The notes: a model not told the origin generated them from the sequence alone. Numbered from the stretch's first letter, positions 51,860-64,000 are shown. The stretch is DNA of 64,000 nt from a virus (IMGVR_UViG_3300044213_000051:1-64000), one strand, 5' to 3'. Translations and numbers: made by a program.

Positions 51860-54553
51860 TTAGTATGTGCCACCATCAATTGTAAAGCCATCAAGAGTAG
51901 AAGTGGAAGCACCAGATCCAGTAATGTTACCAGAAGCACTGATGTTACCAGTAAATGACGAAGTAGAAGTTACGCTTAATGTTCCACCAATACTTGCGTT
52001 ACCAGAAGTAGTAACAGTAGTACCACTGAAGCTAGAAGAAGTAATTGTTTTGTTACTTAAAGTTTCTGTTCCAGCTAATGTAGCAAGAGTACCGCTATTA
52101 GGTAATGTTACAGATGTAGAACCTGTAGCTGTTAACGAGATTCCATAAGCACCAATAGTAGTAAACGCACCAGCAGTGTTAATATTACCACCAAGAGTGA
52201 TAGTATTTGAGCCGTTGTTTACACCAGTACCACCATAAGTAGCACCAAGAACAGTACCTTGCCAAGTACCAGTAGTAATAGTACCTAGAGTATTGATAGA
52301 TGTTTGACCAACATATGTTGATTTAATTTGTAGTTGGTTAGCTACGATAGCAAGTGTTGTATTATCAACAACAGCACTTAACGTGTTACCAGATTTAGAT
52401 AAACCAGCACCAGCAGTAATCTCACCAGCACCAGAGAATTGAATCCAGTTTTGAGCATTAGTATCAACAGTAATTGTTGCTACATCGGCAGAGAACTCAG
52501 CTAGAACATAACCAGAGTTAGCGTTCTGTGTACCTTCTGTGGTAAACACGAACATACCTGGAGTAACTGTACCAGTAGTAGTTGCACCGTCAGCATCAGT
52601 AGCACGAGTCAATACCCAGTTAGTAGAAACAGAACCAATACTAGTAACAACGTAAATACCATTATCTTTAGTAGTTGTCTGATCTTTAACAAGAACACGG
52701 TCACCAACAACAGCTGGAACAGAGTCAATGGTCAACGCAGCTTGAGTGCCAGAGTTAGTAAGTGTTTTACCTGCACCAGAACCAGAAGCAGTTGCAGTTA
52801 AGTTTGAACCAGTAGTCGCTAAACGAACTGGGTATTTAATATCTAAACCTGATTTTAGACCATCAACATATGCTTTGTTAGCAGCGTCAGTAGCTTGAGT
52901 TGGAGTTCCAACAGAAGTAATTCTGGCACCAGCAACGTCAACAGTACCAGTACCAGTCGGTACTAAGTTTACGTTATTATTGCCAGAAGCAGCAGTAATT
53001 GATAGGCTACCAGAAGCACCAGTTAAACTTGTTACAGTTGCAGCACCAAGAGTTGGTGTAGTGAAAACTGGGCTAGTTGTTAAAGCAACGGTATTTCCAG
53101 AACCAGAGGTGCCAGTAATTGAAGTTCCATTAACTTTTAATACGTTGCCAGTTGCAGCAGTATCAAATGTCTTGTTAGTGAACGTATCAGTTGTTGCTTT
53201 ACCAACCAAAGTATCAGTTGTTGCTGGTAGAGTTAATGTACCAGAAGCTGTTGCTGATGCTTGTAGGGTTGTTTGACCAGTTGTAGAACCACCATAGTTA
53301 ATACCACCAGTAATAGATGGTGTTGCAGACAACATAACAACAGCACCAGAACCAGTGTAACTATTAATTTGGTTGCCATTGATTTTTAATACGTTACCAG
53401 TTGCGGCAGTATCAATTGTCTTGTTAGTTAGGGTATCGGTAGTTGCTTTACCGATTAAAGTATCAGTAGCAGCTGGTAGAGTTAAAGTGTTTGTTCCTGC
53501 AGTGGCAGAAGCAACAACAGTAATCTGACCAGAAGTAGATCCCTTAAAGATTGCGCTGGTACCAAGAGTTACAGCACCAGTTAATGTCGAAGTACTAGAA
53601 ACAGATAAAGTACTTGATAAAGTAGTTGCGCCAGTTACACCTAGTGTACCTGCGATTGTTGTATTACCAGAAGCAGTATCTACTTGGAATGTAGTAGAAG
53701 TACCGTTATTGATTGTTAAATATTCAGTTCCAGGTGTTGCAGAACCAGATAATGTTAAACCATTCTGGAATGTTACACCACCAATAGAAGTTTCAGTTCC
53801 AGTAAGAACTAAGTTGCCGCCAACATACAAGTTACCAGCAACACCAACGCCACCAGAAACAACCAATGCGCCAGTAGAAGTTGATGTAGAAGCAGTAGTA
53901 TTAAGAACTGCTAGTTTAGTATTATCCCAAGTACCAACTTGAGTAGAAGTGCCAGAAGAACCTGAATAGAAGTGAAGAACATCATCACCAGCACCTGGAG
54001 AAGTTTCTGCGATGATATATGTTTTACCATCAACAGAACGAACACCACCTAGTGATGTCCAGTTAGTGCCATTATAACCTTCGAACTGTACGTTAGTAGT
54101 ATTGAAACGAACAGCTGCAGTTACTGCTGGACCTTGCTGAGCAGTAGTACCAGAAGGAATAACTAATCCGTTTGTTCCAGAGACAGAAACGTAACCAGTA
54201 CCATTAGGTGTTAAAACGATGTTACCGTTAGTATTCTGTGCTTGAATAGTGTTACCTGATAGGTATAAGTTACCTACGTACCACTTATCGATTGTACCAG
54301 TTGCGGAAAGAACTGGAATAGATGATTGGTTTGTTGTTAATGTACCAGCAACTGATGCGTCAACTAAACCTGTGTAGTATTGACCACCAATGATAATGTG
54401 GTTTGCAGCGTTACCGCTGGTTTCTGTGCCCATACCGATGTATAAGCGATTACCACCTGTACCTGCAAACGCTGAATATGCTAATTCACCTGCGGCAAGG
54501 GTACTTGGATTCCCTGCGGTAGACGAACGTTTAATTCTGATTGTTGATGCCAT
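51860..54553 (-). CDS. Virion structural/fibre protein
   Basis: IRIKRS...GELAYS, DAANKAYVD, RVLVKDQT..KDNGIY, LTRATDAD, IDGGTY. Confidence 0.8.
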   Translation of the reverse strand: MASTIRIKRSSTAGNPSTLAAGELAYSAFAGTGGNRLYIGMGTETSGNAANHIIIGGQYYTGLVDASVAGTLTTNQSSIPVLSATGTIDKWYVGNLYLSGNTIQAQNTNGNIVLTPNGTGYVSVSGTNGLVIPSGTTAQQGPAVTAAVRFNTTNVQFEGYNGTNWTSLGGVRSVDGKTYIIAETSPGAGDDVLHFYSGSSGTSTQVGTWDNTKLAVLNTTASTSTSTGALVVSGGVGVAGNLYVGGNLVLTGTETSIGGVTFQNGLTLSGSATPGTEYLTINNGTSTTFQVDTASGNTTIAGTLGVTGATTLSSTLSVSSTSTLTGAVTLGTSAIFKGSTSGQITVVASATAGTNTLTLPAATDTLIGKATTDTLTNKTIDTAATGNVLKINGNQINSYTGSGAVVMLSATPSITGGINYGGSTTGQTTLQASATASGTLTLPATTDTLVGKATTDTFTNKTFDTAATGNVLKVNGTSITGTSGSGNTVALTTSPVFTTPTLGAATVTSLTGASGSLSITAASGNNNVNLVPTGTGTVDVAGARITSVGTPTQATDAANKAYVDGLKSGLDIKYPVRLATTGSNLTATASGSGAGKTLTNSGTQAALTIDSVPAVVGDRVLVKDQTTTKDNGIYVVTSIGSVSTNWVLTRATDADGATTTGTVTPGMFVFTTEGTQNANSGYVLAEFSADVATITVDTNAQNWIQFSGAGEITAGAGLSKSGNTLSAVVDNTTLAIVANQLQIKSTYVGQTSINTLGTITTGTWQGTVLGATYGGTGVNNGSNTITLGGNINTAGAFTTIGAYGISLTATGSTSVTLPNSGTLATLAGTETLSNKTITSSSFSGTTVTTSGNASIGGTLSVTSTSSFTGNISASGNITGSGASTSTLDGFTIDGGTY

Positions 54554-54567
54554 CTTTTATTCTCCGA

Positions 54568-54795
54568 TTAAAATTCTCCACCTTCCATGTCCTGCGCATC
54601 TAACGTAGTAGTCGCAGTCCATAAGGCGGTGTTATTCTTATAAACTAATACTGCTCCATCTGTTAACCCAGTCAAGTTAACATCAGCCATTGCTTCTATA
54701 GAATTTGGAGGTACTGATGTAGGTGATGCAGTTACGGCAGTTCCACTAGTGGAAACACCATAAGGATTTGAAACGACTGCTATAATGTCTGCCAT
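54568..54795 (-). CDS. Small virion protein
   Basis: MADVNL...GAVLVY...W, ends EGGEF like the neighbouring fibres. Confidence 0.65.
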   Translation of the reverse strand: MADIIAVVSNPYGVSTSGTAVTASPTSVPPNSIEAMADVNLTGLTDGAVLVYKNNTALWTATTTLDAQDMEGGEF

Positions 54796-54796
54796 A

Positions 54797-55129
54797 TTAT
54801 TGGGTAATCTCTGGGCTTATTGTTACTATACCTTCAACAACTCTTGTACTTTCGCCAGTAGGGTTTGTCACTCTAATGTCATACAAATATCTGCCTGGAG
54901 GTATAACTCTTGATTGCGCAGAATCTAATTCGATCTGCACTCTACCGTTGATTGGATTACTGATAACAGCAGTGAAATCGTAAGAAGTCGATGACTGGTA
55001 CGATTTTCTCATTTGAGAAGCTACAGTGAAACCTGTCAAGTCCAATGGAACACCATTAGTACCCGACACAGTCACATATGTCCTAAAAAAAGCACCTTGA
55101 TCTACATAAAGGTTGGAAATTGTAGCCAC
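54797..55129 (-). CDS. Conserved virion protein (BppU-N-like Ig fold)
   Basis: NLYVDQGA, DLTGFTVASQMRKSY, GRYLYDI, RVVEGIVTISP. Confidence 0.75.
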   Translation of the reverse strand: MATISNLYVDQGAFFRTYVTVSGTNGVPLDLTGFTVASQMRKSYQSSTSYDFTAVISNPINGRVQIELDSAQSRVIPPGRYLYDIRVTNPTGESTRVVEGIVTISPEITQ

Positions 55130-55155
55130 TTGTTTAATCTCCCGATATACATTCT

Positions 55156-55183
55156 TATTTATCTTATTTTGGAACGCTAAATA
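55156..55183. promoter_or_regulatory. Back-to-back divergent late promoters
   Basis: GATAAATA on minus (55156-55163) and CTAAATA on plus (55177-55183). Confidence 0.6.
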
Positions 55184-55227
55184 CTATTGAGCTGCGAGGC
55201 GATTTTTAACTATTATGGAGTTATTAT

Positions 55228-55869
55228 ATGGACAATATTCAAGCACCCCAAAATGGAACAGGTTCAGCGACTGAAGTTCCATCAGATAAACAGTTAGTTA
55301 CAAAAACTTTCGAAAAACTGTTATTCCCAACCGATATTAAAAGTTTCCAAATTTCGGATTTTGAGGATTTTCAACAGAAACTTTTGACATTTATTCAAAG
55401 TGAAGAATGTCAACCAAAAGATTCTTTAGAGCCGATCGACCCGATTTTTAAAGAAGATGACAGTATCTTCAAACTTCGCGAAATTGTATACTCTATTTGT
55501 GAACAATTACCAGAGTTTAATATACCAGAGCTTCAATACACACCAACTATTATTGGCTCACAGATATTTTATCAACAACAATACGAACACATTCCACCGC
55601 ATGCGTATGAATTTGTTCCGTTGGTATTTTCGTTCATTTTGTCATGCCCAGAATCACCCCCAGTAACTTATTATCCAGATACTCGTGGAGCAGTTCAAAC
55701 AGTTAGAGATACAGTATCTCAAAACTTAGTTGCTACTAGTTTCTCTCTGCGTGGATGGCAAGGTGAAGTTATTGTCACACCTGGATATCTACAACGTTAT
55801 GTGGAAACAAACTTGTCTGAAAGAACTTACGTTGTTCTTAATGTCAAAATTGGTTTTGCTTCCTATTAA
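55228..55869 (+). CDS. Degenerate 2OG-Fe(II)/cupin-fold protein (TIGR02466-like)
   Basis: GGAG RBS; PPHAY...YPDTRGA...GEVIVTPGYLQRYVETNLS follows the family pattern HxH...DPR...G.L.IFPSWL.H.V..N.S..R with ligands lost. Confidence 0.6.
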   Translation: MDNIQAPQNGTGSATEVPSDKQLVTKTFEKLLFPTDIKSFQISDFEDFQQKLLTFIQSEECQPKDSLEPIDPIFKEDDSIFKLREIVYSICEQLPEFNIPELQYTPTIIGSQIFYQQQYEHIPPHAYEFVPLVFSFILSCPESPPVTYYPDTRGAVQTVRDTVSQNLVATSFSLRGWQGEVIVTPGYLQRYVETNLSERTYVVLNVKIGFASY

Positions 55870-56917
55870 ATTTAGCAGTTCGAGGAATGTAGCGTAAGCT
55901 ATAATCTTCATATAAAAATAACCAAGTCGGTATGGGGTTTCCTAAATTGGAAACCCCTTTTGGTTTGTTCCAAGCATAGTAAGAATCTCCACTATACTCC
56001 TCAATCAATTGACGCATAACCCATCTGTGAGTTAGTGCGTTTCCAACTTCTTTCGTAAATGGTTCTTTGGTTGTAATAACATAACGCTGAAAATCGTCAG
56101 TATTAAAAAAGTGATATATGTTATCTTGACGTTTCGTACTAACCATTGACGCAAACTGAGAAGTATACCAATCATAGTTAAAAATACACCACCATCTTAA
56201 ATCACGCAAAGTTTCAATTTTTTTAGGACTTGCCTTTATTGACGGAAGAATAAACTCGTGTAGCTCTGGGTTTATACATTTGGTGTAATCCATCAGTGGA
56301 TCTGGACCTTTGAACTGATGATGGAAAAATGATATATCAGTTTTCACAGTTCCAGTTGTAAAGTCGTCTGTCGGACCAAACAGTTGGTTACCAAAAAACC
56401 CTGTTACAAAAATCTCATCTTCAGGACAGTCATCAAACTCTCTTCTGGAAGTAACCTTAATTTTATGGTTTACGCCAGATGGTAAGATAACTTTATCAAA
56501 CATCGAGCCAGATTCTAATACAGAACTGTAAGTTCCATAAACAGTAATTCTTGATGGATCTTTCGCGTAGTGAATCAGCGCAAACAGAACCAATGTGCTG
56601 TCAATACCACCACTCCAAACAACGTTAATTTTCTTACCTGTTGCAAGAAGCTCTTCGCAACGTTCTTTAACTATCTGCTCGAACGACTTGTTAAAACCTT
56701 CTGGAATTTCTGGTATCTGTAGCAACCCACCCTTCATATTAAGGTAATGTGGAGTATTACCAGTTCTATCAAACACAACATTCAAATTCATGTTATGTTT
56801 CTCATAGAAGTTAAACAACTCTATAGCATTATCCGATAGATCGTCAGCAATCGTATCTGGATATTGAGCCATTACTTGTTTAACGTACCCTGTATTATAA
56901 AATAAAATTTGTTTCAT
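55844..56917 (-). CDS. Asparagine-synthetase-like (PP-loop adenine nucleotide alpha-hydrolase) protein without glutaminase domain
   Basis: VVWSGGIDST PP-loop; FVTGFFGNQLFG (cf. AsnB SGEGGDELFG). Confidence 0.75.
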   Translation of the reverse strand: MKQILFYNTGYVKQVMAQYPDTIADDLSDNAIELFNFYEKHNMNLNVVFDRTGNTPHYLNMKGGLLQIPEIPEGFNKSFEQIVKERCEELLATGKKINVVWSGGIDSTLVLFALIHYAKDPSRITVYGTYSSVLESGSMFDKVILPSGVNHKIKVTSRREFDDCPEDEIFVTGFFGNQLFGPTDDFTTGTVKTDISFFHHQFKGPDPLMDYTKCINPELHEFILPSIKASPKKIETLRDLRWWCIFNYDWYTSQFASMVSTKRQDNIYHFFNTDDFQRYVITTKEPFTKEVGNALTHRWVMRQLIEEYSGDSYYAWNKPKGVSNLGNPIPTWLFLYEDYSLRYIPRTAKFNRKQNQF

Positions 56918-56929
56918 TATATCCTCAAA

Positions 56930-56956
56930 ATAAAAATGGGGAGCTTAGGCTCCCCA
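56930..56956 (-). terminator. Intrinsic terminator hairpin
   Basis: TGGGGAGC-ctaa-GCTCCCCA followed by TTTTT on the minus strand; GATAAATA box at 56958-56965. Confidence 0.7.
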
Positions 56957-56975
56957 ATATTTATCACGCTACAGA

Positions 56976-57923
56976 TTAATGTAATTGAATCTTGCTTACA
57001 AGACCTGGAGTGAAGTAGTCAGCAAACTTCTCGTAAACTGCAGAAGTAACTTCTTTGAATTTCTTCTGTTCAGTTTCATCCATGCGAACAACCATAACAC
57101 CCTTTTCTTCACATTCAGCTAGAATGTTTGGAATGTCAGCAACTGATTCACGACGCTCTGCACGAGCAGCGTTGAAAGCAGCAGTAGCCATAATTTCTTG
57201 AGTTTCTTCATCGAACTGAGCCATGAAGTCTTTGTTAACAATAATAGAAGTCAAGAACAAGCTGTGGGCAGTGTCATTAACAACCTTGAAAGACTTATAT
57301 TGGTCAAGTGGGAAAATACGAACGTAAGTAGATTCGCCAGCAGCAATTTCGCCACGATCAGCAAATTCGTTCATTTCTTCTAGAGCGATGTGCTCTTTTG
57401 GTTCTGCTCCAAGCAACTTAAATGTTTCAACAGCAACAGGGCTACGGCTAGTACGAACAGCTTGACCTTTCCAAGCATCTACAGTGTCAGCCTTAAAGTT
57501 AGCTGGAACAACACGATAGCCACCAGAGTAAGTGAAAGACATAGCGTGGATATTACTATTCTTAGAAACACCAGCTAACAACTCAGCACCAACTTCACCT
57601 TCCAAAACAGCGTCAGCATGGGCGTGGTCACGGAATAGGAATGGTAGGTCTAAAGCGTGTAGATCTTTGTTGTAATCAGCCAACCAAGTAGTGTAGATGT
57701 GGCTCATTTCGATAGTGCCATCATCGATCATCTGCATTAGGTCGTTCTTGCTGATTTTCTTGCCATCGTTATACTTAGCTGCATAGTCTGATAAAGAAAG
57801 AACTTCAATGTTAAACATACCATTGGTTTTTTCGTTAACTTCTTTAGCAAAGTGCTCAGCAACTTTCAAAAACAAGCCAATAGGCTCGTGGGCGATAACC
57901 CATTTTACATGTTTTTGTTCCAT
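56976..57923 (-). CDS. TRAP transporter substrate-binding protein (DctP-like)
   Basis: FAKEVNEKTNG.FNIEV, LDLPFLFRDHAHADAVLEGEVG.ELL, GGYR, VR, FKLLGAEP, TAH. Confidence 0.88.
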   Translation of the reverse strand: MEQKHVKWVIAHEPIGLFLKVAEHFAKEVNEKTNGMFNIEVLSLSDYAAKYNDGKKISKNDLMQMIDDGTIEMSHIYTTWLADYNKDLHALDLPFLFRDHAHADAVLEGEVGAELLAGVSKNSNIHAMSFTYSGGYRVVPANFKADTVDAWKGQAVRTSRSPVAVETFKLLGAEPKEHIALEEMNEFADRGEIAAGESTYVRIFPLDQYKSFKVVNDTAHSLFLTSIIVNKDFMAQFDEETQEIMATAAFNAARAERRESVADIPNILAECEEKGVMVVRMDETEQKKFKEVTSAVYEKFADYFTPGLVSKIQLH

Positions 57924-58250
57924 TTAAATCTCCTTTTTGTTTCTATGTAGTAGGTACCCAAGTTTAGTTAGGTCCAATATCCAGCTTTCTTCACTACTAT
58001 TTATCTTATGGTAGATTACTGGAATGTTATTTTCGACAATTATTCTTATATATTTATGAACAACTGCTTTTTGCTCCTCACTTCCAACCAACTTAAATTC
58101 TGGGATCTGGATAGATACATTGTTGTTTTGAAACGACTCTGTAGTTTCTGAATTATGATAGAAAATCCTAGAGATAGTATGTCTATCATAATTCGATCCA
58201 TATCTTGGAAATTTATTAACTTCCCAAATATAACAATCTAAAAAAGCCAT
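57924..58250 (-). CDS. Hypothetical protein
   Basis: 108-aa ORF coupled between the radical SAM and TRAP genes. Confidence 0.55.
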   Translation of the reverse strand: MAFLDCYIWEVNKFPRYGSNYDRHTISRIFYHNSETTESFQNNNVSIQIPEFKLVGSEEQKAVVHKYIRIIVENNIPVIYHKINSSEESWILDLTKLGYLLHRNKKEI

Positions 58251-58251
58251 A

Positions 58252-59721
58252 TTATTGAATAGTCGTTGGAATGCTAACAACTGGAATGTTTACAGGTTTG
58301 CGAACTTTCCAAGATTTCTGTGTACCACCAGATTTCACAAAATCAATGTCAATAACAGGTTGGCTTGTTTGTCCGTCGAATCTGATTTTTTCGCCTTGTA
58401 TTTCAACCAAAACCAATCCATCAGTCATGATAAACATAGAAGCTGCCAGTATTGCCAAATTATACCAATAGAGATTCTCGCATGCTTGACTCCAATATTG
58501 ATCTTCTAAGAACAGGCACGCACCTTGACATAGTTGAACAACTGGACAAGAAGGGCATTCTGCACGAGTTGACCAGTGATATGAGTTCTTCAAACGAACA
58601 TCTTCTAACTGATCGATATTACCAAGGTTGTGTTTAGTTAGAGAAGAAGTGTTTTGGCAAGTAGTTACGTTACCTTTCATATCGATGGCAATCGTATCTT
58701 CTTTATCCATACCACACTTTTGACCAACAACAGTAGCTGGTCTTTGGTAAACTAACGATTCAAAAAACCCTTGGATTTTCTGATTAATTGTCCAACTAAA
58801 CTGATTCTTAAACTCAATAGTTTCCCAGAACAACGAATGTAGAATTTCTTTCTTCTCATCTGGCGTTTGAATAGAGTGAGCCATGCCACTATCATCATAT
58901 GGTAACATCAATTCTTCTGTTGTTACCTGCAATTCAGTCTGTCCAATTTCAACATAATCATATCCAAGATCTTTACGATTTAATTTTTCTTGAATAAAAT
59001 CACGAACAGCTGCAATTGAAACATTCTGACGTGTCAATACACAGTTAAACGTAAATCTCATCTGACCCATTGTTTTTAAAGCATAAACAACAGCATCTTT
59101 TGCTTCTGGTTCATCCAAAGGATCTGGTCCACGGTTCTGAGCATGCAGTGGTCCATCGTGAGACATACCAATAGAGAATCCCATTTGATTGAACCAATCA
59201 ATCTTTTCTCGTGTTAATAGTGAGCCATTAGTCACCATCATAAACTGCGCATTAGGATAAACCTTACGAATCTTTTCCGCCAATGGTTTTAGAGTTTTCC
59301 AATAAACCATTGGTTCACCACCCCAAAATTCCAAACGGAATCTATCATAAGTGCTAAACTTAAAATTATTTTTAATCTTTTGAACAAGTTCTTCAGCATC
59401 CTCTGGACCACCAACTGGATCGTGTGGTTGATGTGCCTGATTGCAATATGAGCAAGCGTAGTTACACTTAAGACCCATAGTAATTTTTAGAGTTGCTGGT
59501 TTATCTGACTTCTTACCCCAGAGATCTGGGTTATGTGGATTGGTTATTTTAGCAGGTTCCCATTTTTTAGCAGTTACCTGATATTCTAATCCGTTTGAAA
59601 TGTGAGTCAATGTAGGTTTAGTGCCATCCGATTCCCAATAAACTTCAGAAGTCATTGGATCATACACTAATGTTTCTTTCACATCATTTGATCCTTGTAG
59701 GATCAACTTATATTTACTCAT
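58252..59721 (-). CDS. Radical SAM/SPASM-domain enzyme (anSME/peptide-maturase-like)
   Basis: CNYACSYC (CX3CX2C), FWGGEP, VTNGSLL, SHDG; SPASM C...GNVTTC...CPSCPVVQLCQGAC...C. Confidence 0.93.
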   Translation of the reverse strand: MSKYKLILQGSNDVKETLVYDPMTSEVYWESDGTKPTLTHISNGLEYQVTAKKWEPAKITNPHNPDLWGKKSDKPATLKITMGLKCNYACSYCNQAHQPHDPVGGPEDAEELVQKIKNNFKFSTYDRFRLEFWGGEPMVYWKTLKPLAEKIRKVYPNAQFMMVTNGSLLTREKIDWFNQMGFSIGMSHDGPLHAQNRGPDPLDEPEAKDAVVYALKTMGQMRFTFNCVLTRQNVSIAAVRDFIQEKLNRKDLGYDYVEIGQTELQVTTEELMLPYDDSGMAHSIQTPDEKKEILHSLFWETIEFKNQFSWTINQKIQGFFESLVYQRPATVVGQKCGMDKEDTIAIDMKGNVTTCQNTSSLTKHNLGNIDQLEDVRLKNSYHWSTRAECPSCPVVQLCQGACLFLEDQYWSQACENLYWYNLAILAASMFIMTDGLVLVEIQGEKIRFDGQTSQPVIDIDFVKSGGTQKSWKVRKPVNIPVVSIPTTIQ

Positions 59722-59770
59722 GCTATTCCTTTAATATAAATGAAAATACCCTGCTTTATCTTACACAGGG

Positions 59771-59777
59771 TATTTAG
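59771..59777 (-). promoter_or_regulatory. Late promoter box upstream of the radical SAM gene, overlapping a 10-bp inverted repeat
   Basis: CTAAATA; AAATACCCTG/CAGGGTATTT arms. Confidence 0.55.
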
Positions 59778-59787
59778 CCACTAGAAA

Positions 59788-60819
59788 TTAAACCAGTGTA
59801 ATCATTAACTCAGCAAAAGTTAATTGTGGTCCACAGTTTAATTTAAATTTGATAAAATCACCAGCTGAAAGTTTGTTGTCAACGATAACGTCTTCGTATC
59901 CAGCAAATCTTGAGGGAAGATTATTTAGACCAAGATATGTGAAATCTGGAGCTACTTGACCAGTTCGTACCCCAGAAGTTAATCGAGTTTTAGATGGTGT
60001 TCCATTTACACAATTTATATCGAATGTTACTGGTAAAGTTTTATCTGGTATTCCACTCTGATATACAACTCTAAACTTATATTCAGGATTGGTCGGTAAA
60101 GAAATTGCAAATTGTCCGCCAGCAAATTTTTGTGGATCTACCCCAGGCATAACGAATGTTGATGGAACCATACTTAAAGGGACTTCAGTGGTAACAACAT
60201 TATTATTAGCGTCAAGAATTTGGAAAATGATATTTACTATATAGTTCATAGCGATATCTTTAATTCTGTCTTTGGTAGACATTTCAACTGGTGCTGGTGT
60301 AGTAGCAGAGTCTATTACTGTTGCGTGTGGTGATCCATCTTCAATAACATGGAATGTTAAAACACTAGCAGAAAAATCAGTTACTGTTCCATAAAATGAT
60401 TCAATTTGAAAACATGGAAACAATTTTTCGCTTTGTCTTGCTTGAATGTCACTCCAAATAGTATGATGAGATGTACTAGAATTTATTAGTGTTTGAGTAT
60501 ACGATAGAACATTAAATGGGTCGTTGATCGTTTCAGTTTCAGCGTCAAACTCAACGATCCAAGCCATATTGTCTGTATACTGAACAAAATCTGCTGGAGT
60601 GAACGCTCTTGTAGCTACAGTTGTATATGTAATTGGAGCGTCTACAGCAGAATTTAAGTCTGGTTTAACTAGTTTATCAACAGTAAGGTTGATTGTTTTA
60701 GTACTATCAACATATCCCATTGTTACTCTATAGTTAGAATTAACCGCAAGAACACCCTGTGGGTATGATGTTTGACTAGGATCAAATCCTACGATTGGTG
60801 TTTTATAGATTTTATACAT
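59788..60819 (-). CDS. Hypothetical protein (beta-rich C-terminal domain) between the Cys-rich ORF and radical SAM gene
   Basis: 343-aa ORF with AGGG RBS; no recognisable motif. Confidence 0.7.
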   Translation of the reverse strand: MYKIYKTPIVGFDPSQTSYPQGVLAVNSNYRVTMGYVDSTKTINLTVDKLVKPDLNSAVDAPITYTTVATRAFTPADFVQYTDNMAWIVEFDAETETINDPFNVLSYTQTLINSSTSHHTIWSDIQARQSEKLFPCFQIESFYGTVTDFSASVLTFHVIEDGSPHATVIDSATTPAPVEMSTKDRIKDIAMNYIVNIIFQILDANNNVVTTEVPLSMVPSTFVMPGVDPQKFAGGQFAISLPTNPEYKFRVVYQSGIPDKTLPVTFDINCVNGTPSKTRLTSGVRTGQVAPDFTYLGLNNLPSRFAGYEDVIVDNKLSAGDFIKFKLNCGPQLTFAELMITLV

Positions 60820-60832
60820 TTATATTCCCTAA

Positions 60833-61204
60833 TTAGCAGTTACAGTTGCATGCGCAGTTACAGTTGCAATTACAGTTGCAATTACAGTTTACGCGATAGT
60901 AACGGAACATACCAAGAGACTGTTCTTGAGAATCGTGACGCATACCAGCACCATTATATGCACCATTGGCGAAGATGTTAATACGCCAGTCTGTAGTATA
61001 TATGTTTAAGGGGATTGGTCCTGGATTACAGTTACCACAGTTACAGTTACAAGCTGTGTTACATGCGTTACATGCGCAGTTCCAGTTACAGTTACCGTTA
61101 GAATCATTCACATAACGTGCGCCAACGTCACCCTGCCATCCCCAGAAAATACCGTTAAGGTCGGTACCACCCGAATTTCTAAATCCAACCGCTGCTACTG
61201 GCAT
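60833..61204 (-). CDS. Cys/Asn-repeat protein; putative radical-SAM substrate / tail-tip protein
   Basis: GGAG RBS within the fibre end; 17 Cys in two arrays (NCNWNCACNACNTACNCNCGNC; NCNCNCNCNCNCACNCNC-stop). Confidence 0.8.
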   Translation of the reverse strand: MPVAAVGFRNSGGTDLNGIFWGWQGDVGARYVNDSNGNCNWNCACNACNTACNCNCGNCNPGPIPLNIYTTDWRINIFANGAYNGAGMRHDSQEQSLGMFRYYRVNCNCNCNCNCNCACNCNC

Positions 61205-61205
61205 A

Positions 61206-62396
61206 TTATTTCTCCAAGTTTTCTAATCGAGTATTTAACTCTTTAATAGTTTCGTTTTGTTCTTTAATTGCTTCAATCAGTAAACCAACGATGTTAGCAT
61301 AGGCAACAGATTTGAATCCCTCGGAGTCTTCTCCGACTAAGAAAGGCATAACTCTTTCTACTTCCTGGGCGATTAAACCGATTTCTGGTTTACCTTGTTT
61401 CAGATAGGAAACGCCACGCAATTGTAAAACAGTGTCTACGGCATTATTTAGCGTTTGTACGTTCTCTTTTAATCGTTGGTCAGAAGAAATCTGGAATCCG
61501 CCAGCATAAACAGTTCCACCAACACTTTCGTTACCATTAACAGTATTGCTTCCTGTAAAGGTGTTATTAGCGTTTAGACGTGGAATATTAGAACCAACGT
61601 TAATTGTTGGATTACCAGCAACACCATCTGGATTGCTAATAGTAATATCTGATCCAGCAGCCAAAGTTCTTGGAACGATTGTGTTAGTTGCTGTTCTGGC
61701 AACCAAGCCAGTTGTAGATAAGTTAGCGTAAGCTGTTAACTCTGCGCTGAATGGTTGAACGTCTGTACCAACACGAGTACCTAAAACTGCCTGAGCACCA
61801 GAAGTCGATGTTGTGGCAATAAGAGATCTGGCATAAGAAGTTAGCGATGCTGTTGTTAGGGTATTAGCACCATTAAAATAAACAACCTGATCAGCTGCAC
61901 CAGAAATCCCTGATAATGAGTCTAGTTTTGTGTTCCACGCTTGGACGTTTGTTCCGATAATCAATCCAAGATTGGCACGAGCATTTGACGCATTAGTTGC
62001 GCCAGTACCACCAACGGATACAGGAATAGAACCACCGCTAATTGAAATTGAACCAACCGACAAAGAACCAGTAAATGTAGCATTTACACCAGTAATGTTA
62101 TTTGTTGAGGTTAAATTGTAGAATGTAGAGCTACCTGTAGAATCGCGAGTAACTACAGAACTGTAATTTGGACCAGTTGGTAATGATGGATTGGATTGCA
62201 ATCCTTGTAACAAATCAGCGTCTAAACCAGATCCAACACCATCAACAGTCTCCAATTGCGTAATAATGTTATGCGCATTAAAGTCTGTGATTAATACTCT
62301 TGTCTGAATATCTGCGTTTAGGTTTGTGAAGTTGGCATCAACTTCATTATTTGTTAGGGGTGAACCCTTAGATTGTCTTAAAACGAGTGTCGCCAT
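61206..62396 (-). CDS. Tail fibre protein with C-terminal S74 intramolecular chaperone
   Basis: LRQSKGSPLTNNEVDANF, GSGLDADLL, SDQRLKENV, IGLIAQEVE, VAYANIVGLLIEAIKEQ. Confidence 0.9.
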   Translation of the reverse strand: MATLVLRQSKGSPLTNNEVDANFTNLNADIQTRVLITDFNAHNIITQLETVDGVGSGLDADLLQGLQSNPSLPTGPNYSSVVTRDSTGSSTFYNLTSTNNITGVNATFTGSLSVGSISISGGSIPVSVGGTGATNASNARANLGLIIGTNVQAWNTKLDSLSGISGAADQVVYFNGANTLTTASLTSYARSLIATTSTSGAQAVLGTRVGTDVQPFSAELTAYANLSTTGLVARTATNTIVPRTLAAGSDITISNPDGVAGNPTINVGSNIPRLNANNTFTGSNTVNGNESVGGTVYAGGFQISSDQRLKENVQTLNNAVDTVLQLRGVSYLKQGKPEIGLIAQEVERVMPFLVGEDSEGFKSVAYANIVGLLIEAIKEQNETIKELNTRLENLEK

Positions 62397-62410
62397 TGTT
62401 TTCCCTTAGT

Positions 62411-62653
62411 TCAGCGATCTTTAATTAACAGCAAAAGCATCTGTTTAATCTCAGAAATATCTGCCTTTATATTATTTATTTGTTCTGTATGTTGAGAAAG
62501 AACCTCTGATTCGCGTAAACGCTTCTCGTGTTCTTCTTTCATTTTTAGATAATTTTCATACTCGGTCTTGTTAGTATTTAGGATTGCTCCTGTACTTGTA
62601 TCTCTAACAAGACCCGTATGACCCTCAACCTTCAAAAATTTAACATTATGCAC
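62411..62653 (-). CDS. Conserved small coiled-coil phage protein
   Basis: KVEGHTGLVRD..TGAILN...IKADISEIKQML. Confidence 0.75.
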   Translation of the reverse strand: MHNVKFLKVEGHTGLVRDTSTGAILNTNKTEYENYLKMKEEHEKRLRESEVLSQHTEQINNIKADISEIKQMLLLLIKDR

Positions 62654-64000
62654 AAGAAATTACTCTAAAATCTTTTAGTTTAGGAACCGCACAAGTATTT
62701 GTGGATTGTAGAACAATCTTAACAACAATTGTGTCATATGGTGCAGTATTTTGAGCTGTGTATGTAACATCCGTAAACGATGGGTCGCCGAACTGAACAT
62801 TAGGTAATGTGCCAGCGTCTGGAGTCAACAATGTGTATGGAGTTGTAGCCAATTGACTGCTATCACCTAAACAAGTCTTATAGTAAACCAATACGTTAGC
62901 CTGTGTAGGAATGTTCGCACCGAACATAACACGAGTATAAGTCGATTGTGCCGCCAACTTAATAGGAGTTGTTACATATTTGCTTATTGTAGAACTTCCA
63001 GTTGGAGCAATCTCATCAACGAACAACTGTTTGTAAGAAACTGTTGTTCCAGTTGCACCAGCTTCGCTAGTGAAAGTTCCGCTAACAGTTAAAGTACCTG
63101 TTCCGCTAGAACCAGAAGCAAAGTTTCCAGGATTTGTGTCACTGTAACCAGTAACTAGAACAGTCTGACTATTGCTTGACGTTGTAGCACCACTGATAAC
63201 AACATAACTACCAACAGGAATAGTTGCTAAAGCAGCACGAACTGCGTAGTTAGTAGAAGTTATTGTGTTACCAGAGAAACTAAATGCTCCAGTTGCGCCA
63301 GTAAACACAGGAAGAATATCAAGAACAGCAAGGTCAGTTGTTGCTGGATTTGGTACGTTTACGCTATTAGAAATAGCAATCATACTTGTTCTAGTTGTAT
63401 CAATAACAGGAGATACTGCGTCATTTGATGTAGTCAATTGAGCAGAGAATGTTAATGATTTGGCACCAGACAAATATGTTGTTTCATTAATCTTAGAAGC
63501 AATAATTCTTGGAGCAGTAAAGTTATTGTTATTGTAAGTCAAACAAGGGCTAAAGTTAGAATCAACAACATATGGAGTTTCACTACCACTAATTGATTGA
63601 CCAGAAGTAGTCTTAACTGAGAACGTACTTGTTGTCAATGGGAATGTCTGCATTTGAACTGTTGGATTGATAACATCAAACTTGATGTTCTTAGATGCAC
63701 GATATCCATTGCCACCAACATAACCAGCAATCGTTGCGTTAGTTGTTGATGTAATAGTATAGCTATCTTTCAACACGTTACTAATTGAATGAGTTCCTAG
63801 AATCTGAGAAGCAGGAATTCCGTTTAGAGGATTGATGAAATTACCTAAAGTATATGATGATAATGCTTCAGTTGCATTTGCTGTTAGTGTTAAAGTAGTG
63901 TTATTAGCAATAGCAGCAACCTGACCGATTAAAGTCATATTGTTGTCGTATAAACAAGAACCAACAACTAATTGGGTAGTGAAAGAAGTTCCAGTTCCAG
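62646..64000 (-). CDS. Large virion structural protein, C-terminal part (5'-truncated by the window edge)
   Basis: Frame stays open to 64000 (GTGTSFTTQLVVGSCLYDNNMT...); VSPVID, SKYVT, VYYK, IKIVL.S...VPKLKDFRVI typical of large T4-like virion proteins. Confidence 0.8.
   Translation of the reverse strand, partial: GTGTSFTTQLVVGSCLYDNNMTLIGQVAAIANNTTLTLTANATEALSSYTLGNFINPLNGIPASQILGTHSISNVLKDSYTITSTTNATIAGYVGGNGYRASKNIKFDVINPTVQMQTFPLTTSTFSVKTTSGQSISGSETPYVVDSNFSPCLTYNNNNFTAPRIIASKINETTYLSGAKSLTFSAQLTTSNDAVSPVIDTTRTSMIAISNSVNVPNPATTDLAVLDILPVFTGATGAFSFSGNTITSTNYAVRAALATIPVGSYVVISGATTSSNSQTVLVTGYSDTNPGNFASGSSGTGTLTVSGTFTSEAGATGTTVSYKQLFVDEIAPTGSSTISKYVTTPIKLAAQSTYTRVMFGANIPTQANVLVYYKTCLGDSSQLATTPYTLLTPDAGTLPNVQFGDPSFTDVTYTAQNTAPYDTIVVKIVLQSTNTCAVPKLKDFRVISCA

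What the first reader, a model, noticed from the sequence alone, without database searches (positions are those of the whole stretch)
60833..61204. (NC)n protein placed like a gp38-type tail-tip adhesin
Seen: the ORF starts 1 nt after the stop of a fibre ending in an S74 autocleaving chaperone. It has a non-Cys N-terminus (VGFRNSGGTDLNGIFWGW), an 8-Cys array, a ~45-aa aromatic-rich spacer and a terminal 9-Cys array. Asn and Cys codons vary (AAC/AAT, TGT/TGC), so the repeat looks maintained at protein level rather than by DNA slippage. Established: in T2/S16-type phages a separate adhesin caps the fibre after chaperone cleavage. Inference: the N-terminus docks on the fibre tip; the two Cys arrays are cross-linked or bind metal (metallothionein-like or Fe-S) and present the spacer as a receptor-binding loop, possibly mimicking a metallophore for a TonB-type receptor.
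Basis: partly seen in the sequence, partly recalled or inferred. Interest (0 to 1): 0.78.

Follow-up and report, generated by a model that had tools for sequence, protein, structure and literature searches.

The report
Asn-Cys fibre-tip protein with radical-SAM maturase
This small phage protein, one-seventh cysteine, is a free-standing copy of an Asn-Cys "ladder" that many phages carry at the end of their tail fibres, and it nearly always comes with a dedicated radical-SAM enzyme, so phages probably modify their host-binding fibre tips chemically, which no paper I searched describes.

Summary
Window 60833..61204 (minus strand) encodes a 123-aa protein with 17 Cys: an 8-Cys array, a 46-aa spacer and a terminal (XC)9 array. 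It starts 1 nt after the stop of a Peptidase_S74 fibre gene.

- The fibre-tip placement holds. The gene follows the S74 fibre in all 25 related IMG/VR loci that hold the fibre's end (26 fetched). A second, unrelated lineage has the same layout.
- In prophages, a module with the same opening motif and the same Asn/Cys layout is fused to the C-terminus of true tail fibres.
- The protein is not gp38-like in sequence, and its spacer is not hypervariable.

That enzyme family and C-terminal (Asn-Cys)n tails co-occur almost without exception, tested in both directions. An Ig-like protein (p343, family M1) accompanies them, and often a 2OG-oxygenase-like protein.

Best reading (about 0.6): this is a fibre-tip piece whose Cys ladder the rSAM enzyme matures, probably by thioether cross-links.

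I found no paper on this. Earlier agents of this scan reached the same reading on other genomes; I re-derived it independently here. Novelty: new variant of a known kind.

The parts
61206..62396 (-). Tail fibre, 396 aa, with a C-terminal Peptidase_S74 self-cleaving chaperone (residues about 305-396)
   Evidence: Pfam PF13884, E 1.2e-13. PHROG tail-fibre families, E down to 5e-29. Conserved upstream of the NC gene in all 25 loci that hold its end.
60833..61204 (-). The finding: a 123-aa Asn/Cys-rich protein (17 Cys). The stop codon is at 60833-60835.
   Evidence: Homologues.
61148..61195 (-). N-terminal motif A-(A/T)-(V/T)-G-F-R-x-S-x-G-T-D-L-N-x-x (residues 4-19), shared with the start of prophage fibre-tip modules
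   Evidence: hhalign of the NC family against the prophage tip module: probability 96%, E 2.8e-9 over these 16 residues, and 80% with the terminal arrays stripped. The same motif occurs three times in tandem in P0012.
61028..61099 (-). First Cys array (residues 36-59), NGNCxWNCACNACNxxCNCNCGNC, with 8 Cys
   Evidence: Mean identity 0.85. N36, N38, C39, C43, C45, N53, C54, N58 and C59 are invariant.
60890..61027 (-). Spacer (residues 60-105), aromatic- and Gly-rich, moderately conserved and not hypervariable
   Evidence: Mean identity 0.50. D72, R74, F78, R89, Q93 and R104 are invariant.
60836..60889 (-). Terminal (X-Cys)9 ladder, NCNCNCNCNCNCACNCNC, ending on the last residue. Proposed rSAM substrate.
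   Evidence: Nine units in 22 of the 26 complete copies (10-11 in the others), with synonymous codon variation. NCNCNC begins 109 of 124 distinct C-terminal arrays collected.
59788..60819 (-). p343, a 343-aa beta-rich protein and fastest-evolving gene of the operon. Member of family M1, which follows (NC)n fibres in prophages.
   Evidence: About 30% identity among relatives. hhalign to M1: probability 94.4%, E 8.9e-8, 206 columns. AF2 pLDDT 85.5. BFVD hits to uncharacterised phage proteins, E 2e-14. C-terminal residues 194-343 form a generic Ig-like sandwich.
58252..59721 (-). Radical SAM/SPASM enzyme, 489 aa (CNYxCxYC at C86/C90/C93, plus seven conserved SPASM Cys). Proposed maturase.
   Evidence: Pfam Radical_SAM. 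NCBIfam SPASM TIGR04085, 36.5 bits against a cut-off of 27. Matches of about 60-67 bits to the top-ranked maturase models (PapB, anSME, nif11, DynA, QhpD), all far below their cut-offs. phrog_1802, 216 bits. Conserved Cys. PDB comparison.
57924..58280 (-). p118, a small unknown protein conserved only in this T4-like clade
   Evidence: No family hit.
56976..57923 (-). DctP-like solute-binding protein, last gene of the transcription unit, clade-specific
   Evidence: Pfam DctP, E 3e-41. 73-90% identity in relatives. Terminator-like hairpin at 56956..56937 on the minus strand.
55844..56917 (-). PP-loop (SGGIDS) AsnB/LarE-like protein, clade-specific accessory
   Evidence: Weak NCBIfam hits, E 2e-3 to 1.5e-2. 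Conserved in relatives.
55228..55869 (+). p213, convergent gene, a remote relative of family M2 (2OG-Fe(II)-oxygenase-like) found in the prophage cassettes
   Evidence: hhalign to M2: probability 91.8%, E 7.5e-7. M2 hits phrog_81 2OG-Fe(II) oxygenase, E 1.5e-9, and Pfam PF13759, E 4.5e-4. In the alignment, Arg stands where M2 has its second conserved His, so catalysis is unproven.

Best explanation
The 123-aa protein is a free-standing version of an Asn-Cys fibre-tip module. In many phages and prophages that module is the covalent C-terminal end of a tail fibre.

It is made late, translationally coupled to the S74 fibre gene. It most likely joins the distal end of that fibre through its conserved N-terminal A-TGF+..G.D motif (inferred).

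Its Cys arrays, above all the terminal NCNCNC... ladder, are the substrate of the radical SAM/SPASM enzyme encoded two genes downstream. The substrate link is inferred from co-occurrence. The enzyme most likely installs thioether cross-links between Cys sulfur and a carbon of neighbouring Asn, Asp or Ala residues. These could lie within a chain or between the three chains of a trimer, giving a covalently stapled tip made in the reducing cytoplasm. The chemistry is inferred only by analogy with CteB, PapB, NxxcB, QhpD and CrpC.

The Ig-like protein p343 (family M1) is an obligatory partner. It may be the variable receptor-binding piece that sits on the ladder, or a substrate-presenting or assembly factor.
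For: (1) Synteny. The order p430, p80, S74 fibre, NC, p343, rSAM, p118, DctP-like, PP-loop is kept in every IMG/VR locus that reaches far enough.

(2) Forward test. An rSAM profile fetched 80 loci from bacterial genomes. 59 of the 80 carry a (X-Cys)n>=4 array. In nearly all of these it lies 1-3 kb upstream of the rSAM on the same strand, at or next to the C-terminus of an ORF. Of the loci with the full 8 kb upstream, only 4 lacked such an array. Of those 4, one has a shorter array and one has a broken fibre.

(3) Reverse test. A DNA pattern for (NC)4 fetched 120 viral loci.
- Arrays at the C-terminus of an ORF of at least 90 aa, with at least 3.5 kb downstream: 36 of 39 have the rSAM at 30% identity or more. 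Two of the other three (L191, L225) have a weaker rSAM hit; L184 has none.
- Arrays in short non-ORF segments: 0 of 41.
- Internal arrays: 1 of 14.

(4) The array is the only shared element. Thirteen BLAST clusters of pre-array sequence carry the array, about nine of them clearly real proteins. Some have no other Cys, for example collagen-like L075, the L062 type, L089 and L191.

(5) The array-bearing ORFs are tail fibres by PHROG and by GenBank annotation in Achromobacter phage JWF and Ralstonia phage RSP15.

(6) The array must end the mature chain. 68 of 124 tails stop on the last Cys. Where a domain follows, it is a Hint-like self-cleaving domain whose first Cys is the last Cys of the array.

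(7) A second lineage (L199) has S74 fibre, an unrelated 133-aa NC protein, rSAM, then M1.

(8) The enzyme has CX3CX2C plus a full 7-Cys SPASM motif. Its best solved relatives are 8vpo (an unnamed rSAM protein) and the thioether synthase CteB (5wgg). Like CteB, it lacks the extra Cys that anSME has in the first SPASM segment.

(9) Purifying selection acts at protein level: invariant Cys with synonymous codon changes.

(10) Precedent exists for rSAM/SPASM thioether cross-links on whole proteins, in CrpC/CrpA (PMC13692751).
Against: - There is no chemical or virion evidence of any kind.
- AF2 gave no usable model of the protein (pLDDT 45.7), and no multimer tool was available. Docking on the fibre is therefore untested.
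- No RiPP recognition element was detected in the rSAM N-terminus or in p118.
- In the window the rSAM is not adjacent to the NC gene.
- The enzyme scores far below the cut-off of every characterised maturase family, so its chemistry cannot be read from homology.
- Ala often replaces Asn in later units, so a side-chain acceptor is not universal.
- Homology between the window protein and the prophage tip module is statistically shown only for the 16-residue N-terminal motif. The rest is shared architecture.
Confidence: 0.6

Rival explanations
1. gp38-type adhesin. The small protein caps the fibre, its Cys arrays are a rigid metal-bound or disulfide scaffold, and the spacer is the receptor-binding loop. 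The rSAM is irrelevant to it.
For: Position directly behind the fibre gene. The module is fused at fibre tips elsewhere. CxC runs are classical thiolate metal ligands (general knowledge).
Against: No gp38 homology. The spacer is not hypervariable, whereas the neighbouring p343 is. The near-obligate co-occurrence of the array with the rSAM in both directions would be left unexplained.
Confidence: 0.12
2. The rSAM does act on the ladder but performs other chemistry. Candidates are Cys-to-formylglycine oxidation (anSME-like), epimerisation, or C-C or C-O cross-links, rather than thioethers.
For: anSME and YydG are among the solved relatives, at scores similar to CteB. All NCBIfam maturase models score equally poorly.
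Against: There is no C/S-x-P/A-x-R sulfatase motif. The invariant element is Cys, which in SPASM systems is most often the thioether donor. The anSME-specific extra cluster ligand is missing.
Confidence: 0.15
3. The rSAM, M1 and oxygenase cassette modifies something else, such as p343/M1 itself, another part of the fibre, or a small molecule. The (NC)n tail is merely a co-inherited metal-binding or disulfide tip.
For: M1 or a positional alternative is present in nearly all cassettes. The T4-like clade adds a DctP-like binding protein and a PP-loop enzyme, which hints at a small-molecule ligand.
Against: The fibres that accompany the rSAM share nothing but the array. M1 is replaced by unrelated families (M3, M5, M6) in some cassettes while the array stays. 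p343 has few Cys, none seen to be conserved.
Confidence: 0.08
4. A secreted RiPP (bacteriocin-like peptide) encoded as a phage moron, not a virion part.
For: A small Cys-rich ORF near an rSAM/SPASM gene is the classical RiPP layout.
Against: No leader peptidase or exporter is present. The gene is translationally coupled to a fibre gene within the structural module. In most relatives the same array is the end of a 200-700 aa tail fibre.
Confidence: 0.04

Closest known systems
SCIFF/CteA-CteB and the ranthipeptide and sactipeptide systems (PapA-PapB, NxxcA-NxxcB)
   Same: A Cys-rich substrate is encoded next to a radical SAM enzyme with a SPASM domain. CteB (PDB 5wgg) is among the two best solved relatives of the window enzyme, and both lack the extra Cys ligand of anSME. 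NxxcB uses Asn as acceptor (my knowledge; NxxcB is named in PMC11851443).
   Different: The substrate here is a virion protein or the end of a 200-700 aa tail fibre, not a leader-core peptide. The motif is a strict dipeptide ladder (N-C)n at the extreme C-terminus. No protease, exporter or detectable RRE is present. The enzyme scores far below every family cut-off.
QhpD/QhpC and CrpC/CrpA (rSAM/SPASM thioether cross-links on whole proteins)
   Same: An rSAM/SPASM enzyme cross-links Cys of a structural protein subunit rather than a secreted peptide (CrpC/CrpA: PMC13692751; the QhpD model TIGR03906 scores 60.6 bits).
   Different: The context is cellular enzyme subunits or archaeal Cys-rich proteins, not phage particles. 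The substrates have no Asn-Cys ladder. Membership is not met, since the score is far below the cut-off of 453.
T2/S16-type gp38 adhesin on the gp37 fibre tip
   Same: A small separate protein is encoded immediately after the distal fibre gene and may sit on the fibre tip after the fibre's own C-terminal processing (positional analogy).
   Different: There is no sequence relationship, no glycine-rich motifs and no hypervariable segments. gp38 needs no modifying enzyme.
T4 gp37 needle tip with HxH iron-binding repeats (my knowledge)
   Same: An alternating-residue ligand ladder lies at the very tip of a trimeric fibre. CxC could play the role of HxH.
   Different: The residues are Cys rather than His. 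There is a dedicated radical SAM enzyme, which metal binding alone would not require. This was not tested.

Membership tests
gp38 tail-fibre adhesin (T2/S16 type) | Sequence homology to the GP38 family | tested here: not met
   No Pfam, NCBIfam or PHROG family at E<=0.01 to 0.1.
gp38 tail-fibre adhesin (T2/S16 type) | Glycine-rich motifs alternating with hypervariable segments | tested here: not met
   The sequence has no Gly-rich repeats. Spacer entropy is 0.94 against 0.99 for the N-terminus, with six invariant residues.
gp38 tail-fibre adhesin (T2/S16 type) | Gene immediately downstream of the distal fibre gene | tested here: met
   1-nt gap. Conserved in all 25 loci that hold the fibre's end, and in lineage L199.
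gp38 tail-fibre adhesin (T2/S16 type) | Bound to the fibre tip in the virion and determines host range | not testable with these tools
   Needs virion MS, cryo-EM and genetics. No multimer prediction was available.
rSAM/SPASM-matured Cys-rich substrate (sacti- or ranthipeptide-like; QhpC/CrpA-like) | Cys-rich substrate gene co-oriented and co-transcribed with an rSAM/SPASM gene | tested here: met
   Same strand, 1.1 kb apart. No terminator-like site on the minus strand before 56956.
rSAM/SPASM-matured Cys-rich substrate (sacti- or ranthipeptide-like; QhpC/CrpA-like) | Enzyme has CX3CX2C and a seven-Cys SPASM motif | tested here: met
   C86/C90/C93, and C336, C355, C389, C392, C398, C402, C414, are invariant. 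TIGR04085 scores 36.5 bits against a cut-off of 27.
rSAM/SPASM-matured Cys-rich substrate (sacti- or ranthipeptide-like; QhpC/CrpA-like) | Substrate motif and enzyme co-occur across lineages | tested here: met
   Forward test. Reverse test 36 of 39 against 0 of 41.
rSAM/SPASM-matured Cys-rich substrate (sacti- or ranthipeptide-like; QhpC/CrpA-like) | Membership of a characterised maturase family (PapB, CteB/SCIFF, QhpD, anSME, and others) | tested here: not met
   The best model scores 66.6 bits against cut-offs of 340-855.
rSAM/SPASM-matured Cys-rich substrate (sacti- or ranthipeptide-like; QhpC/CrpA-like) | Leader or RRE-mediated recognition | tested here: inconclusive
   No PqqD/RRE hit in the rSAM N-terminus, p118 or JWF gp029, even at E<=5.
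rSAM/SPASM-matured Cys-rich substrate (sacti- or ranthipeptide-like; QhpC/CrpA-like) | Thioether (or other) cross-links actually present | not testable with these tools
   Needs mass spectrometry.
Metallothionein | Homology to an MT family; Cys-X-Cys clusters with few or no aromatic residues; metal binding | tested here: not met
   No Pfam hit. The protein has about 11 aromatic residues and a conserved non-Cys N-terminus. Metal binding itself is not testable here.
Peptidase_S74 chaperone-bearing fibre (the upstream gene) | C-terminal intramolecular chaperone domain | tested here: met
   PF13884, 51.5 bits against a cut-off of 22, residues 305-354.

The most novel reading that the evidence does not exclude
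Tailed phages of many lineages use a virus-encoded radical SAM/SPASM enzyme to build a covalently cross-linked Asn-Cys ladder at the extreme tip of their receptor-binding fibres. These lineages include aquatic T4-like myoviruses, siphoviruses such as Achromobacter phage JWF, Ralstonia phage RSP15 and many proteobacterial prophages. A co-evolving Ig-like partner (M1) attaches to the ladder or presents it. This would be RiPP-type chemistry used as a general step of virion morphogenesis.
Probability: 0.45. Interest if true: 0.88.

Novelty: new variant of a known kind. Interest (0 to 1): 0.78.

Why it matters
Enzymatic post-translational cross-linking of a phage receptor-binding organelle by a radical SAM enzyme has not been described in any paper I could find. 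One pelagimyophage study noted only that radical-SAM gene cassettes lie in the host-recognition cluster (PMC7029224).

If true, it would:
- add a new kind of virion maturation step;
- explain why oxygen-sensitive Fe-S enzymes sit among tail-fibre genes in abundant aquatic phages;
- give RiPP enzymology a new, very simple substrate motif, (N-C)n at a free C-terminus;
- matter for host-range prediction and fibre engineering, because heterologous expression of such fibres without the enzyme would yield immature tips.

Cultured carriers exist (JWF, Achromobacter phage 2-1, RSP15), so the idea is directly testable.

Tried and rejected
- AF2 of the NC protein with a 27-sequence alignment gave pLDDT 45.7 and pTM 0.28, unusable, so it was not fold-searched.
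- The p343 model is good (pLDDT 85.5). Foldseek against the PDB found nothing at E<=1e-3. VIA-align wide matched only a generic Ig-like sandwich for residues 194-343, with Z no higher than 8.2. No function could be assigned.
- Searches of GenBank phages with the region DNA and with the NC protein found no match.
- A 'longer' search for fused forms of this exact family found none.
- An exhaustive HMMER profile search found only 3 clusters plus 2 weak hits. The standalone family is therefore narrow, and the prophage modules are too diverged or too biased for HMMER.
- ESM Atlas gave no usable hit.
- The RRE/PqqD search was negative.
Context was obtained through the search for related loci and the DNA search instead.
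- DNA slippage as the origin of the array was rejected. The array has nine units in 22 of the 26 complete copies, and its codons vary synonymously.
- I considered that the A-G-G-F-Q-I-S-S-D start of the S74 domain resembles the NC N-terminal motif, but did not pursue it. This is an eye observation only.
- Six literature searches for any description of rSAM-modified tail fibres found nothing relevant.

Full report
**1. What is there**

The finding lies on the minus strand. ORF 60833..61204 encodes 123 aa. On that strand the fibre gene ends ...GAG AAA TAA, one T follows, and then comes the ATG. A GGAG lies 8 nt upstream of the ATG, inside the end of the fibre gene, so translation is probably coupled.

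The upstream ORF (61206..62396, 396 aa) is a tail fibre with a C-terminal Peptidase_S74 chaperone (PF13884, E 1.2e-13; PHROG tail-fibre families).

The protein has four parts:
- a Cys-free N-terminus (residues 1-38);
- eight Cys between residues 39 and 59, each preceded by Asn or Ala;
- a 46-residue spacer with seven aromatic residues;
- a terminal NCNCNCNCNCNCACNCNC that ends the chain.

It is the extreme Cys outlier of the 87-kb contig, at 13.8% against a median of 0.57%.

The contig is an uncultured T4-like myovirus. Its major capsid protein is about 65% identical to those of Methylophilales phage Melnitz and marine cyanomyoviruses.

**2. The protein family**

Ten database clusters and 26 IMG/VR loci encode homologues of 117-133 aa.

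The two Cys arrays are the most conserved parts, with mean identity 0.85 and 0.89. The N-terminus (0.57) and the spacer (0.50) are alike, and the spacer keeps six invariant residues. The predicted 'hypervariable spacer' is therefore not seen.

The terminal ladder has nine X-Cys units in 22 of the 26 complete copies. The first three units are always N-C. Both residues show synonymous codon changes, which means selection on the protein rather than slippage.

An exhaustive profile search of 1.8 billion representatives found only three clusters of this standalone family. No longer fused forms of it turned up.

**3. The neighbourhood is the key**

On the same strand follow:
- p343 (59788..60819);
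- a radical SAM/SPASM enzyme (58252..59721);
- p118;
- a DctP-like protein, followed by a terminator-like hairpin;
- a PP-loop protein.

A convergent 213-aa gene closes the region.

The enzyme has CX3CX2C and seven invariant SPASM cysteines. It reaches the SPASM domain cut-off. The top-ranked peptide-maturase models (PapB, anSME, nif11, DynA, QhpD) match it at only 60-67 bits, far below their cut-offs, and CcpM, SCIFF and the rest score lower still.

This gene order is kept in every related IMG/VR locus that extends far enough. The rSAM is 68-89% identical, but p343 only 27-38%.

**4. Enzyme to array**

The rSAM has homologues of 35-38% identity in Achromobacter phages JWF and 2-1 and in Ralstonia phage RSP15, again beside tail-fibre genes.
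- The JWF fibre gp028 contains NCNCDCNCNCSC immediately before a Hint-like domain.
- The RSP15 side tail fibre ends ...NCQCGN.

A profile of the enzyme retrieved 200 relatives from one-genome-per-species bacterial assemblies. These are mostly freshwater Alpha- and Betaproteobacteria, presumably prophages or binned phage contigs. I analysed 80 of them.

59 of the 80 loci carry a (X-Cys)n>=4 array. In nearly all of these it lies on the same strand, 1-3 kb upstream of the rSAM, at or next to the C-terminus of an ORF. Among the loci with the full 8 kb upstream, four lacked such an array. One of these has a shorter array, one has a broken fibre, and two are unexplained. The array-bearing ORFs are tail fibres by PHROG.

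**5. Array to enzyme**

A DNA pattern for (Asn-Cys)4 retrieved 120 viral loci.
- Array at the C-terminus of an ORF of at least 90 aa, with at least 3.5 kb of DNA downstream: 36 of 39 loci have the rSAM at 30% identity or more. Two of the other three (L191, L225) have a weaker rSAM hit; L184 has none.
- Arrays in short non-coding segments: 0 of 41.
- Internal arrays: 1 of 14.

The link therefore holds in both directions.

**6. What is shared**

Thirteen BLAST clusters of pre-array sequence carry the terminal ladder, about nine of them clearly real proteins. Several have no other Cys, including a collagen-like fibre that runs straight into NCNCACDC.

Across 124 distinct tails:
- X is Asn in 79%, Ala in 9% and Asp in 7%;
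- 88% begin NCNCNC;
- 55% end on the last Cys.

Where a domain follows the array, it is a Hint-like domain whose first Cys is the last Cys of the array. The Pfam Hint hit for L061 is weak (E 5e-3); JWF gp028 is annotated as a Hint family protein. So the ladder appears to need a free C-terminus.

This explains the split gene in the window. A fibre that uses a C-terminal S74 chaperone cannot also end in the ladder, so the ladder is supplied on a separate small protein.

The same solution appears in an unrelated lineage. L199 has a 656-aa S74 fibre, a 133-aa NC-rich protein of a different sequence family, the rSAM, and then an M1 protein.

**7. Relation of the window protein to the fused tips**

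One large group of prophage fibres ends in a module of about 135 aa with the same order of parts:
- A-TGF+..DG.D;
- an N/C-rich stretch with NGNC;
- a Trp/Gly/aromatic spacer;
- Arg, then (NC)n.

Profile comparison aligns only the 16-residue opening motif (probability 96%, E 2.8e-9; 80% with the arrays removed). Homology is thus shown for the motif, and shared architecture for the rest. The motif also occurs three times in tandem in a Cys-free phage protein (P0012), as expected for a structural or docking element.

**8. Partners**

Between fibre and rSAM the prophage cassettes carry family M1 (about 270-340 aa) and often family M2 (about 185-255 aa).
- The window's p343 family matches M1 (probability 94.4%, E 8.9e-8).
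- The convergent p213 family matches M2 (probability 91.8%, E 7.5e-7).

M2 is 2OG-Fe(II)-oxygenase-like (phrog_81, E 1.5e-9). In the p213 alignment, Arg stands where M2 has its second conserved His, so its activity is uncertain.

Presence among loci with enough flanking DNA:

| Family | T4-like loci | Genome loci | Viral loci |
|---|---|---|---|
| M1 | 17 of 17 | 33 of 44 | 7 of 7 |
| M2 | 17 of 17 | 25 of 44 | 4 of 7 |

In all but one of the remaining genome loci, M1 is replaced by the unrelated families M3, M5 or M6. The DctP-like, PP-loop and p118 genes are essentially confined to the T4-like clade (one other locus carries them).

The AF2 model of p343 is confident (pLDDT 85.5). It matches uncharacterised phage proteins in BFVD (E 2e-14). 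Against the PDB it shows only a generic Ig-like C-terminal sandwich. Its variation is spread along the chain, with two very variable loops at residues 221-240 and 281-300. It is a better candidate for the host-specific surface than the NC spacer.

**9. Mechanism**

Shown:
- the anatomy;
- conservation of the Cys;
- coupling to the fibre gene;
- near-obligate co-occurrence of the terminal ladder with this rSAM/SPASM family and an M1-type partner.

Inferred:
- the ladder is the enzyme's substrate;
- the product is thioether cross-links.

The chemistry rests on analogy. CteB is among the closest solved relatives. Like CteB and unlike anSME, the family lacks the additional Cys in the first SPASM segment. 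In CteB that leaves a cluster site for the substrate thiolate; this point comes from my own knowledge of the CteB structure paper. rSAM/SPASM thioether formation on whole proteins has precedent in CrpC/CrpA (PMC13692751), and in QhpD/QhpC (my knowledge).

A covalent staple that can be made in the reducing cytoplasm would be a sensible way to harden a trimeric tip. Metal binding by unmodified CxC runs, by analogy with the HxH iron sites of T4 gp37, remains possible, for the first array in particular.

**10. Comparison and novelty**

The protein works 'like' a gp38-type cap only by position. It is not a member of that family. The system is a new variant of rSAM/SPASM maturation of Cys-rich substrates, in a new setting (a virion receptor-binding fibre) and with a new motif.

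No paper retrieved describes it. One study notes radical-SAM cassettes in the host-recognition cluster of pelagimyophages (PMC7029224).

Earlier notes and follow-up reports of this scan, on this genome and on others, give the same reading. They are AI notes. I consulted the words search only after my own tests were complete, and I treat those notes as agreement, not as evidence.

**11. Limits**

- There is no chemistry, no virion data and no multimer model.
- The viral reverse test is ascertained on NCNCNCNC, so its motif statistics are biased towards Asn. The genome loci, ascertained on the enzyme, show the same NCNCNC start.

Noticed in passing
window 56976-57923 (-): A DctP-like TRAP solute-binding protein is the last gene of the fibre/rSAM transcription unit. 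It is 73-90% identical across the T4-like clade and absent from prophage cassettes. No dctQ/dctM genes were seen among ORFs listed in 54000-64000. With the PP-loop gene, it may point to a small-molecule ligand in this clade.
   Followed up: partly
window 55844-56917 (-): A stand-alone PP-loop (SGGIDS) protein with weak AsnB, LarE and TilS similarity. It is conserved with the cassette only in the T4-like clade. Its function is unknown.
   Followed up: partly
window 55228-55869 (+): A convergent 213-aa gene is a remote relative of the 2OG-oxygenase-like M2 family. In the profile alignment, Arg stands where M2 has its second conserved His. The conserved motifs are EH.P.H.YE and PG...RY.E.N.
   Followed up: partly
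L016 10418-15173: In one relative, about 4.8 kb is inserted between the NC gene and the rSAM. It includes two tandem fatty-acid-desaturase genes (Pfam E about 1e-16) and four unknown ORFs. The ORF right after the NC gene (328 aa) is too diverged to match p343 by tblastn.
   Followed up: partly
L225 2873-3583 (also L182, L209): Two tandem small proteins rich in C-Q-S/T repeats (…CQSxxCQS…) end in NCNCNCNC or NCDCGDDGG. They lie next to a much more distant rSAM (21% identity). This is possibly another flavour of the same system.
   Followed up: no
L031 6962-7984 (also L032, L051, L056, L057, L065, L089): Some prophage cassettes carry a second, shorter radical SAM gene (340-362 aa; Pfam Radical_SAM E 1.8e-8) between M1 and the SPASM enzyme.
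   Followed up: no
L199 5138-6340: In the second S74-fibre/NC-protein lineage, a 400-aa ORF follows M1. It starts with a dinucleotide-binding-type GxGxxA motif (MKIGIIGSGTASA…), so it is possibly a flavin enzyme. It was not analysed.
   Followed up: no
P0012 (199 aa, metagenomic): This protein has three tandem copies of the TGFRxSxGTDLxxLF motif that opens the NC protein, followed by a Cys-free domain. The motif is therefore a portable element of phage proteins.
   Followed up: partly
window 60817-60832 (-): The 13-nt spacer between the NC stop and the p343 ATG reads TTAGGGAATATAA. Together with the ATG it forms TATAAATG, one base from the T4 late-promoter box TATAAATA.
   Followed up: no
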